Made by a program: the position numbers and the translations under genes. Below, piece by piece: positions 16,150-16,770 of a DNA stretch of 64,000 nucleotides. The notes under the pieces were generated by a model. It was not told where the DNA came from, did not search any database, and saw nothing but the letters and a program-made list of their open reading frames with translations. Location: NCBI RefSeq assembly GCF_053078305.1, contig NZ_CP166879.1. One strand, given 5' to 3'. How positions within the stretch are numbered: position 1 is the stretch's first letter; each line of letters opens with the position of its first letter.

Positions 16150-16321
16150 AGAGAAAACCCCTCCGAAGAGGGGCGAGTGTAGCGTAATGGAGTGTTATGT
16201 AGCATGGTGCCGGGTGCCTCCCGGTGAGTTCAGTATCAGCACCTGAACCCGCACAGATAAGGGATGTGACCAAACACCTACGATACTGATATGCCCCGCC
16301 GCTCAGGGGGATTCACCATGC
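16150..16321 (-). ncRNA. candidate small RNA, copy 1 (unidentified family)
   Basis: Minus-strand unit with sigma70-like promoter (TTGTCG, 17 bp spacer, TTAAAA), conserved 5' block GCAUGGUGAAUCCCCCUG, internal hairpin GCCGGGUGCCUCCCGG and an intrinsic terminator CCCCUC-UUCG-GAGGGG followed by UUUUCUCU; no long conserved ORF. Confidence 0.4.
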
Positions 16322-16609
16322 ATTATTTTTTTAACAAATATCCCGTAAGACCGACAATAATCCACTGACTGAACTGTGAAGTATTTAACATTTACCGATA
16401 AAAAGCTGCAGCTGCAGTGGAAAAATACGAAATCACATCATGCCCGATTGCTGACTCGCATCCTGCCAATCGAACGTCGGGCGAACAACTGATCGAATAC
16501 ATCGGAATCCGCAGACAAAAAGCACTGCAGTCTCACGACTGTGCGTTATATATGTCAGCGCCTGTAATATAAGACGGTAATGGGGTCAAAAATCGTGGCG
16601 TTGGCATAT

Positions 16610-16770
16610 ACAAAACAAAACGCCCCTCCGTAGAGGGGCTGACGCTGCGTATCTGTATCATCATGCGCATGGTGCCGGGTGCCTCCCGGTGAACAAACCG
16701 TTCGTGATACCAGTCAGCAACATAGGAAATTAATGGTATCACCCCACCGCACAGGGGGATTCACCATGCC
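16610..16770 (-). ncRNA. candidate small RNA, copy 2 (paralog of copy 1)
   Basis: Same architecture as copy 1: promoter TTGTCC, 17 bp spacer, CTAAAA; conserved 5' block; terminator GCCCCUC-UACG-GAGGGGC followed by GUUUUGUUUUG. Confidence 0.4.

What the first reader, a model, noticed from the sequence alone, without database searches (positions are those of the whole stretch)
16150..16770. Two tandem paralogous sRNA-like genes with their own promoters and terminators
Two units of about 165 nt, roughly 460 bp apart on the minus strand, share a conserved 5' block (GCAUGGUGAAUCCCCCUG), a conserved internal hairpin (GCCGGGUGCCUCCCGG) and a classical intrinsic terminator with a UNCG-type loop (CCCCUC-UUCG-GAGGGG + U-tract; GCCCCUC-UACG-GAGGGGC + U-tract). 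Each is preceded by a sigma70-like promoter with identical spacing. The middle parts have diverged, and no ORF is conserved between the copies. This looks like a duplicated regulatory RNA, possibly a type I antitoxin or Hfq-dependent sRNA pair; I could not match it to any family from memory.
Basis: seen in the sequence. Interest (0 to 1): 0.62.

Follow-up and report, generated by a model that had tools for sequence, protein, structure and literature searches.

The report
Two tandem STnc100-family small RNA genes
The two repeated units are real, but they are two more copies of a catalogued small regulatory RNA family (Rfam STnc100) that is common in E. coli prophages, here sitting side by side in a non-phage genomic island, so the finding is essentially ordinary.

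Summary
**Observation confirmed.** On the minus strand there are two units of about 158 nt (copy A, 16769→~16612) and about 172 nt (copy B, 16321→~16150). Each has a −35/−10 promoter with identical spacing and a UNCG-loop intrinsic terminator.

**Identity.** Both match Rfam RF02076 STnc100 over the full model, at 98.4 and 136.8 bits against a cut-off of 47.

**What is known about the family.** It is a multicopy sRNA of lambdoid and Stx prophages. Relatives are expressed and bind Hfq: EcOnc27/sRNA103 downstream of stx2B, and PasD1/PasD2 in EPEC.

**Structure.** Covariation supports helices P1, P4 and P5.

**What is particular here.**
- The pair lies in a non-phage island module (EEP enzyme, A, B, DUF465, DolP-like), not in a prophage late region.
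- It is not a simple duplication. A and B combine different 5' domains and unrelated 3' tails.
- A related strain carries an A-5'/B-3' chimera whose crossover lies in the shared 26-nt block.

**Most likely function.** Two independently transcribed, probably Hfq-associated, base-pairing sRNAs with different tail specificities. Expression and targets were not testable here.

**Rejected.** A type I antitoxin and a MITE.

**Verdict.** Already known; low interest.

The parts
16776..16805 (-). Copy A promoter: -35 TTGTCC (16805-16800), 18-nt spacer ending TGC, -10 TAAAAA (16781-16776).
   Evidence: Read. It has the same architecture as copy B and as the PasD2 promoter aligned. The strict scan did not call it.
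16612..16769 (-). Copy A RNA, about 158 nt, STnc100 family (middle type M5, tail type T5).
   Evidence: Rfam RF02076 at 98.4 bits against a cut-off of 47, model positions 1-206. Fold energy z-score -3.0. Type assignment.
16667..16769 (-). Copy A 5' structured domain: P1 16769-16762 with 16674-16667; P2 16758-16743; P3 16742-16704; shortened P4 16703-16691; P5 16689-16675.
   Evidence: MFE structure. The Rfam alignment shows P4 truncated. Covariation of P1 and P5 across genera.
16640..16666 (-). Copy A linker GCAUGAUGAUACAGAUACGCAGCGUCA, the candidate seed region (inferred).
   Evidence: It occupies the position of the PasD seed UGUGAG. The same tail type T5 is shared with the second member of phage tandem pairs.
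16612..16639 (-). Copy A intrinsic terminator: GCCCCUC-UACG-GAGGGGC followed by GUUUUGUUUU.
   Evidence: Terminator scan.
16358..16611 (-). Spacer between the copies. It is not homologous to the spacers of phage tandem pairs and has no convincing gene.
   Evidence: BLAST against phage loci, ORF list, permissive Rfam scan.
16328..16357 (-). Copy B promoter: -35 TTGTCG (16357-16352), 18-nt spacer ending TGT, -10 TAAAAA (16333-16328).
   Evidence: Read. No differences over 40 nt between the window and L007, while the flanks differ by 5.5-7.8%.
16150..16321 (-). Copy B RNA, about 172 nt, STnc100 family (tail type T7).
   Evidence: Rfam RF02076 at 136.8 bits. 81% identical to the second copy in phage PhiR5_2. 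One difference in 172 nt against L007.
16202..16321 (-). Copy B 5' structured domain: P1 16321-16314 with 16209-16202; P2 16310-16295; P3 16294-16251; P4 16250-16226; P5 16224-16210.
   Evidence: MFE structure. P4 has compensatory changes at 4 of 8 pairs. P1 and P5 covary across genera.
16175..16201 (-). Copy B linker UACAUAACACUCCAUUACGCUACACUC, predicted single-stranded; the candidate seed region (inferred).
   Evidence: Unpaired in both the MFE and centroid structures.
16150..16174 (-). Copy B intrinsic terminator: GCCCCUC-UUCG-GAGGGG(U) followed by a short U-tract, UUUCUCU.
   Evidence: Terminator scan.
16202..16227 (-). One of the two 26-nt identical blocks (the other is at 16667-16692). 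It is the recombination junction between the 5' domain and the tail.
   Evidence: Direct repeat D1. The crossover of the A/B chimera in L006 lies here.
15806..16033 (-). Context: DUF465 gene (75 aa) 115 nt downstream of copy B, with no consensus promoter of its own.
   Evidence: ORF list, RefSeq annotation of 99%-identical DNA, promoter scan.
17172..18263 (-). Context: endonuclease/exonuclease/phosphatase-family gene upstream of copy A.
   Evidence: ORF list, RefSeq annotation.

Best explanation
The locus holds two independent genes of the STnc100 small-RNA family (Rfam RF02076).

**How each gene is built.**
- Each is transcribed from its own sigma-70 promoter with an extended -10.
- Transcription starts at the G of GCAUGGUG and stops at a UNCG-loop intrinsic terminator.
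- Each RNA has a conserved 5' multi-helix domain closed by helix P1, followed by a variable single-stranded linker and the terminator.

**Likely mechanism.** By analogy with characterised relatives (EcOnc27/sRNA103, PasD1/PasD2), the RNAs most likely act in trans as Hfq-associated base-pairing regulators. The variable linker/tail probably provides target specificity. Because A and B carry unrelated tails, they would regulate different targets.

**How the pair arose.** It was assembled by recombination between family members, not by a simple local duplication. The shared 26-nt block is the junction at which 5' domains and tails are exchanged.

**Shown here:** family membership, anatomy, covariation-supported fold, modular mosaicism, and stronger conservation of copy B and its promoter than of their flanks.

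**Inferred:** transcription of these two copies, Hfq binding, the position of the seed, and the targets.
For: **Family membership.** Full-length hits to RF02076 at 136.8 and 98.4 bits against a cut-off of 47.

**Promoter and terminator.** Terminators were found by the scan. The promoter architecture is identical in both copies. The PasD2 RNA-seq start maps to the homologous G.

**Fold.**
- P4 has compensatory changes at 4 of 8 pairs and 99% of cells paired.
- Across genera, P1 has compensatory changes at 3 of 8 pairs and P5 at 3 of 5. 97.8% of cells are paired, against 54% or less when partners are slid.

**Evidence from relatives.**
- 11 STnc100 copies are transcribed in EDL933, with a Northern blot for one (PMC5331693).
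- EcOnc27/sRNA103 has Northern and Hfq-CRAC support (PMC7873438; PMC12711010).
- PasD1/PasD2 are about 172 nt, show Hfq-dependent stability, give RIL-seq chimeras at their 3' part, and have the seed in the linker (PMC8550237).

**Modularity.** 7 middle types and 9 tail types occur in at least 17 combinations. L006 is an A-5'/B-3' chimera.

**Selection.** Copy B plus its promoter differ at 1 of 212 positions between the window and L007. The flanking intergenic DNA differs at 21 of 335 positions (Fisher p = 0.0005).
Against: - There are no expression data for these two copies.
- Their U-tracts are short or interrupted (UUUCUCU; GUUUUGUUUU), which is poorer for termination and for Hfq binding than the 8 U of PasD.
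- The most conserved part of the family is the structured 5' domain, not the putative seed. That is unusual for a seed-driven sRNA.
- The mechanism of the best-studied relative, sRNA103, is described as unclear (PMC7873438).
- No target stood out among the genes of the window.
- The context is a non-phage island, whereas all functional data come from prophage copies.
Confidence: 0.75

Rival explanations
1. Copy B, and the family more generally, acts in cis as a 5' leader or attenuator. Transcription from the sRNA promoter partly reads through the weak terminator and drives the downstream gene: DUF465 here, and the NanS-p sialate esterase in prophages. The structured domain would modulate that read-through. 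This could coexist with a trans-acting role.
For: - All genes in the array are co-directional.
- DUF465 starts 115 nt after copy B's terminator, and no consensus promoter was found in between.
- Copy B's U-tract is short.
- The B-DUF465 module travels together in L006, L007 and the window.
- A NanS-p-like esterase follows 59 of 93 sampled family members.
- The architecture resembles a riboswitch: a conserved junction domain closed by P1, followed by a terminator.
Against: - The downstream gene is not constant. Esterase, holin, DUF465, endolysin or another sRNA copy can follow, and the distance from +1 ranges from 257 to 839 nt.
- Tails and terminators are swapped freely relative to the 5' domain, so no conserved expression platform can co-evolve with it.
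- The one possible alternative pairing (P2 3' strand with terminator 5' strand) is absent in the Sakai-type and PasD-type tails.
- Copy A is followed by another sRNA gene, not by an ORF.
Confidence: 0.15
2. The invariant 5' domain (the P1-P2-P5 junction with GGUGAAUCCCCCUG and the AGGCA loop) is the functional core. It would be a binding platform for a protein, the ribosome or a ligand. The variable tails would be secondary.
For: - The 5' domain is conserved across Escherichia, Citrobacter, Enterobacter, Lelliottia, Superficieibacter and Phytobacter, while the tails are unrelated.
- Helices covary, but the junction and loop nucleotides are invariant.
- Some divergent members have no obvious terminator after the domain.
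- Several EDL933 copies show ribosome-footprint to transcript ratios of up to 3.2 (PMC5331693).
Against: - Part of the apparent invariance was imposed by the exact-word searches used to collect the sequences.
- Frequent recombination or gene conversion among many copies could also homogenise these blocks.
- The PasD RIL-seq contacts and seed lie in the tail, not in the 5' domain.
- No partner is known.
Confidence: 0.12
3. The two copies are decaying, non-functional relics left by recombination with prophage DNA.
For: - The context has no phage genes.
- The complete tandem locus occurs in only 2 of 5426 complete E. coli genomes.
- Copy A has a truncated P4.
- Both U-tracts are weak.
Against: - Promoter, all core helices and terminator are intact in both copies.
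- Copy B and its promoter are far better conserved than their flanks.
- The shortened P4 of copy A is a recurrent variant, also seen in L029 and L215, rather than a private lesion.
Confidence: 0.08
4. The RNAs are antitoxins of a type I toxin-antitoxin system.
Against: - No hydrophobic small ORF overlaps either copy on the opposite strand or lies adjacent to it.
- No Rfam toxin-antitoxin RNA family matches, even at E-values up to 1.
- The family is documented as Hfq-binding prophage sRNAs.
Confidence: 0.02
5. The two units are the ends of a mobile element or MITE.
For: Homology between the island and phages is confined to units of about 230 bp, so the unit behaves like a portable cassette.
Against: - The units are direct repeats, not inverted repeats.
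- No terminal inverted repeats or target-site duplications flank them.
- Nothing transposase-like lies in the 260-bp spacer.
- The unit boundaries coincide with the promoter and the terminator.
Confidence: 0.02

Closest known systems
Rfam RF02076 STnc100 (Gammaproteobacterial sRNA; multicopy in lambdoid and Stx prophages of E. coli and Salmonella)
   Same: Both copies match the full model far above the cut-off. They share the promoter, the start of the RNA, helices P1, P2, (P4) and P5, and the terminator architecture.
   Different: - These copies lie in a non-phage island module, not between Q and the lysis genes.
- They are in tandem.
- Copy A has a shortened P4.
- Their tails (types T5 and T7) differ from the stx2-linked copy.
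EcOnc27 / sRNA103 (Hfq-binding sRNA downstream of stx2B in O157:H7; overlaps the STnc100 prediction)
   Same: Same family and same 5' domain. VT2-Sakai locus L003 3990-4195 scores 207.7 bits.
   Different: The linker and terminator are different (tail type T4). EcOnc27 is paired with the antisense anti-sRNA AsxR, which is absent here. The reported effects on fimZ and espA cannot be transferred to other tails.
PasD1/PasD2 (EcOnc13 homologues) of EPEC E2348/69
   Same: They share the promoter layout, the +1 position, the 5' block, P1, an overall size of about 172 nt, and the 'structured 5' domain + linker + terminator' plan. A 2026 preprint proposes common ancestry with STnc100 (10.64898/2026.05.13.724894).
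   Different: - PasD falls below the Rfam cut-off.
- PasD has CCUCCU in P2 and lacks the CCGGG/CCCGG P5 hairpin.
- PasD has its own tail with the seed UGUGAG and an 8-U tract. Neither window copy has that seed.
Adjacent sibling sRNAs such as OmrA/OmrB (from general knowledge, not tested here)
   Same: Two neighbouring paralogous sRNA genes with their own promoters and terminators, conserved ends and a divergent interior.
   Different: OmrA and OmrB are core-genome genes that share their seed. Here the conserved part is a structured domain, the putative seeds differ, and the copies were brought together by recombination between mobile-element copies.

Membership tests
Rfam RF02076 STnc100 | Covariance-model score at or above the curated gathering score (47 bits) over the full model. 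| tested here: met
   136.8 bits (16350-16148) and 98.4 bits (16798-16610), model positions 1-206 of 206 in both.
Rfam RF02076 STnc100 | Closing helix P1 (GCAUGGUG/CACCAUGC), P2 (CCCC/GGGG) and P5 (CCGGG-AGGCA-CCCGG). | tested here: met
   Present in the MFE folds of both copies. P1 and P5 covary across genera.
Rfam RF02076 STnc100 | P4 hairpin (GGGUUCAG...CUGAACUC). | tested here: met
   Copy B has the full P4 and the helix covaries. Copy A carries a shortened 4-bp version, a recurrent variant also seen in L006, L029 and L215.
Rfam RF02076 STnc100 | Own promoter immediately upstream and an intrinsic terminator after a linker. | tested here: met
   Terminators were found by the scan. The promoter was read from the sequence and aligned to the PasD2 promoter and start. 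The strict consensus scan did not call it.
Rfam RF02076 STnc100 | Transcribed as a discrete, Hfq-associated small RNA. | not testable with these tools
   Shown only for relatives (PMC5331693, PMC7873438, PMC8550237).
PasD (EPEC Pas sRNAs) | PasD-type tail with seed UGUGAG and BLAST-level similarity to PasD1/PasD2. | tested here: not met
   The tails are unrelated and there is no UGUGAG in either linker. BLAST of the window segment against the PasD loci L004 and L005 found nothing.
Type I toxin-antitoxin (antitoxin RNA) | A small hydrophobic toxin ORF overlapping or adjacent, with extended complementarity to the RNA. | tested here: not met
   The ORFs on the opposite strand across both copies are hydrophilic and are not conserved between the copies. 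There are no TA RNA family hits.
MITE / mobile-element termini | Terminal inverted repeats and target-site duplication. | tested here: not met
   The units are direct repeats, and no flanking inverted repeats were found.
Riboswitch / transcription-attenuating leader | A constant downstream gene family and a conserved alternative pairing between the sensor and the terminator. | tested here: not met
   Downstream genes and distances vary. Tails are exchanged independently of the 5' domain. Read-through into DUF465 itself was not testable.

The most novel reading that the evidence does not exclude
STnc100-type RNAs may be modular. An invariant, covariation-supported 5' domain would have its own, still unknown function, such as binding a protein, the ribosome or a ligand. 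Interchangeable seed/terminator tails would be grafted onto it by homologous recombination in the 26-nt P5/P1 junction. On this reading the tandem pair in this window is a substrate of that process, and the A-5'/B-3' chimera in strain JNEC-KY202 is a product. The process would be a natural mechanism for generating new sRNA specificities, and it would operate outside prophages as well.
Probability: 0.25. Interest if true: 0.5.

Novelty: already known. Interest (0 to 1): 0.18.

Why it matters
**For annotation.** These two genes are missing from the RefSeq feature tables of the matching genomes, but any Rfam-based pipeline would label them.

**Biologically.** The value is modest.
- The locus shows that a prophage sRNA family also resides in tandem in a non-phage island, next to adhesin and stress-related genes.
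- It gives a clean natural example of 5'-domain/tail swapping between sRNA copies.

If the two tails have distinct targets, strains with A+B, the A/B chimera, or B alone would differ in regulation. That is testable but not surprising.

Tried and rejected
1. **Strict promoter scan.** It found no minus-strand promoter in front of either copy. I kept the promoter assignment on the basis of direct reading and homology to the PasD2 start.
2. **Local target search.** I computed duplex energies of both linkers and both P3 regions against the translation-initiation regions of 94 ORFs in the window. Nothing exceeded shuffled controls, so this was uninformative.
3. **Small-ORF idea.** In Escherichia copies, GGGAGG-N11-AUG inside P5/P1 looks like a ribosome-binding site plus a start codon. 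The ORFs run through the terminator, differ between tails, and the AUG is replaced by CAC in other genera. Rejected.
4. **Antiterminator idea.** The P2 3' strand CGGAGGGGC repeats the terminator 3' strand and could pair with the terminator 5' strand. This is absent in the Sakai-type and PasD-type tails. Rejected as a family feature.
5. **Lambda pR'-tR' '6S-like' leader (from memory).** Family members are not adjacent to Q, and here there is no Q at all. Rejected.
6. **Genome-contig scan with a 15-mer.** Only about a dozen true Enterobacteriaceae members were recovered by filtering, so the taxonomic census is incomplete.
7. **First regular expression for splitting domains.** It was wrong and was redone.
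8. **15-nt inverted repeat.** It links copy A's P3 loop to the spacer (I5). I judged it to be at chance level.

Full report
**1. Observation**

Reading the minus strand of 15800-17200 shows two units.
- Copy A begins with GCATGGTGAATCCCCCTG at 16769 and ends after the hairpin GCCCCTC-TACG-GAGGGGC and GTTTTGTTTT (stem 16639-16622).
- Copy B begins with the same 18-mer at 16321 and ends after GCCCCTC-TTCG-GAGGGG(T) and TTTCTCT (stem 16174-16157).

The terminator scan calls both hairpins. The region holds 7 terminator-like sites against 1.1 expected. A 26-nt block, CACCGGGAGGCACCCGGCACCATGC with one flanking base, is identical in both copies and lies 465 bp apart. The pairwise alignment shows that identity is concentrated in the promoter, the 5' block, this 26-nt block and the terminator. 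The interior and the linker have diverged.

The strict promoter scan does not call a promoter. Both copies nevertheless have TTGTC(C/G), an 18-nt spacer ending in TGn, TAAAAA, 6 nt, then G. This is an extended -10 promoter with identical spacing. Otherwise the description is accurate.

**2. Identity**

A gathering-threshold scan of the whole window against Rfam 15 returns exactly two hits, both to RF02076 STnc100 and both covering model positions 1-206. They score 136.8 bits (16350-16148) and 98.4 bits (16798-16610) against a cut-off of 47. A permissive scan of the locus adds nothing credible. The finding is therefore a pair of members of a curated sRNA family.

**3. What is known about the family**

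- In O157:H7 EDL933, 11 STnc100 copies are transcribed, and one was confirmed by Northern blot (PMC5331693).
- In Stx2 phages a copy lies about 75 nt downstream of stx2B (PMC12370729). I confirmed this in VT2-Sakai, where the hit (207.7 bits) abuts the anti-sRNA AsxR on the other strand.
- That copy overlaps the Hfq-binding sRNA EcOnc27, also called sRNA103. It has Northern and Hfq-CRAC support. Overexpression raises fimZ and espA transcripts, and the mechanism is described as unclear (PMC12711010; PMC7873438).
- A 2026 preprint links STnc100 by structure to PasD1/PasD2 of EPEC (10.64898/2026.05.13.724894). These are about 172-nt RNAs with Hfq-dependent stability. Their RIL-seq contacts lie in the 3' part, and the proposed seed UGUGAG lies in the linker before the terminator (PMC8550237).
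- Aligning PasD1 and PasD2 with the window copies shows a shared promoter layout, 5' block and P1. The published PasD2 start coincides with the G of GCATGGTG. That predicts +1 at 16769 and 16321, giving lengths of about 158 and 172 nt.

**4. Structure**

Both copies fold into the same plan: P1 closes a junction that carries P2, a variable P3, P4 and P5. An unpaired linker and the terminator follow.
- In 30 non-redundant Escherichia and phage 5' domains, P4 shows compensatory changes at 4 of 8 pairs with 99% of cells paired. P1, P2 and P5 are invariant in that set.
- Adding divergent members from Superficieibacter, Citrobacter, Lelliottia, Phytobacter and Enterobacter reveals compensatory changes at 3 of 8 P1 pairs and 3 of 5 P5 pairs. 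97.8% of cells are paired, against 54% or less for slid controls.
- P2 and the junction and loop nucleotides stay invariant. Part of that invariance was imposed by the search words I used.

**5. Context**

The window is a mosaic E. coli island and has no tRNA. A module of about 7 kb around the pair (roughly 14.2-21.2 kb) recurs at 99% or higher identity in a few strains. In those strains RefSeq annotates a YadA-like adhesin, a DolP-like lipoprotein, DUF465, an EEP-family enzyme, Pmp3, a LuxR/HTH regulator and hypothetical proteins. There are no phage genes and no ncRNA feature. All genes of the module run on the minus strand. This differs from the family's usual home between Q and the lysis genes.

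**6. Origin of the pair**

Homology between the island and phages is limited to the units of about 230 bp, from promoter to terminator. The spacers are unrelated.

Among 127 instances from viral contigs and fetched loci, 7 middle types and 9 tail types occur in at least 17 combinations.
- Copy A pairs middle type M5 (also in L029 and L215) with tail T5. T5 is the tail of the second member of phage tandem pairs.
- Copy B resembles the second copy of phage PhiR5_2 (81% identity) but has its own tail, T7.

Tandem pairs 467-485 bp apart also occur in PhiR5_2 and in at least six viral contigs. Tandem arrangement is therefore recurrent, though I did not find it described in the papers I read.

Only 2 of 5426 complete E. 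coli genomes hold the whole A+B locus. Strain JNEC-KY202 has a single copy made of A's promoter and 5' domain joined to B's linker, terminator and flank. The crossover lies inside the shared 26-nt block. Strain SCU-171 has B alone, downstream of a sialate O-acetylesterase. The conserved block therefore acts as a recombination junction.

**7. Selection**

Between the window and SCU-171, copy B plus its promoter differ at 1 of 212 positions. The flanking intergenic DNA differs at 21 of 335 positions and the DUF465 gene at 7 of 228 (Fisher p = 0.0005 against the flanks). This fits purifying selection on the RNA gene, although gene conversion cannot be excluded.

**8. Mechanism and rivals**

The best-supported model is two independently transcribed, probably Hfq-associated, trans-acting sRNAs whose different linkers confer different specificities.

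Weak points:
- The U-tracts are short or interrupted.
- The putative seeds are not conserved, whereas the 5' domain is.
- No target stood out in the window.

Assessment of the rivals:
- A cis-leader role for copy B in front of DUF465 remains possible. There is no consensus promoter in the 115-nt gap, and the terminator is weak. As a family-wide function it is contradicted by the variable downstream genes and distances and by the free exchange of tails.
- The type I antitoxin and MITE readings fail their defining features.
- A relic interpretation is disfavoured by the intact signals and by the conservation pattern.

**9. Verdict**

The local specifics are worth a note and do not change the classification. 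They are the tandem arrangement, the non-phage island context and the recombinant relatives.

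Noticed in passing
L006 6442-6628 (E. coli JNEC-KY202), corresponding to window 16150-16227 joined to 16667-16805: The single STnc100 copy in this strain is an exact chimera of copy A (promoter and 5' domain) and copy B (linker, terminator and flank). The crossover lies in the shared 26-nt block.
   Followed up: yes
L002 3542-3735 and 4011-4220 (phage PhiR5_2); also L035, L039, L051, L056, L060, L079: Tandem STnc100 pairs 467-485 bp apart recur in lambdoid phages and viral contigs, with different combinations of domain and tail. 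I did not see tandem arrangement described in the papers I read.
   Followed up: partly
window 16689-16667 and 16224-16202 (minus strand): The conserved block contains GGGAGG followed 11 nt later by AUG, which looks like a ribosome-binding site and a start codon. Some EDL933 copies have high ribosome-footprint ratios (PMC5331693). The AUG is not conserved in other genera, and the ORFs differ between tails.
   Followed up: partly
window 16758-16743 versus 16639-16622, and 16310-16295 versus 16174-16157: The P2 3' strand (CGG.GGGGC) nearly repeats the terminator 3' strand (CGGAGGGG), so P2 could in principle compete for the terminator 5' strand. This is not conserved in the Sakai-type or PasD-type tails.
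   Followed up: partly
window 16815-16889 (minus strand): A 24-aa hydrophobic ORF (MIITLIFRIIVIMILYKCEKHLIS) ends just upstream of copy A's -35 element, in an AT-rich stretch. It has no obvious ribosome-binding site and is probably spurious.
   Followed up: no
window 17172-18263 (minus strand): The EEP-family gene is an intact 363-aa ORF here and is annotated as intact in Z1323MEC0001. In S19-141 and JNEC-KY202 it is annotated as a pseudogene with an internal stop.
   Followed up: no
window 1-64000: The window has no tRNA gene, although the 99%-identical module in strain S19-141 lies in an island next to tRNA-Phe with an integrase. The window is a different mosaic. Its best long match is CP061233.1, a 1.0-Mb record filed as a plasmid.
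   Followed up: partly
L003 4197-4249 (VT2-Sakai): The stx2-linked STnc100 copy is immediately followed, on the opposite strand, by the anti-sRNA AsxR (88 bits). No AsxR-like sequence accompanies the window copies.
   Followed up: yes
L007 7016-8002 (E. coli SCU-171) and 59 of 93 phage instances: There is a recurrent physical association between STnc100 copies and sialate O-acetylesterase genes. The esterase lies downstream in prophages and upstream in the SCU-171 nan island. The significance is unknown.
   Followed up: partly
window 23798-30871 (minus) and 24794-30328 (plus): A 2357-aa ORF has an 1844-aa ORF on the opposite strand. This is probably a repetitive adhesin gene with a spurious antisense frame.
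   Followed up: no
L201, about 190 nt after the RNA start (Phytobacter massiliensis): The divergent family member there is followed directly by a tRNA-like sequence, reminiscent of the tRNA genes in Stx phage late regions.
   Followed up: no
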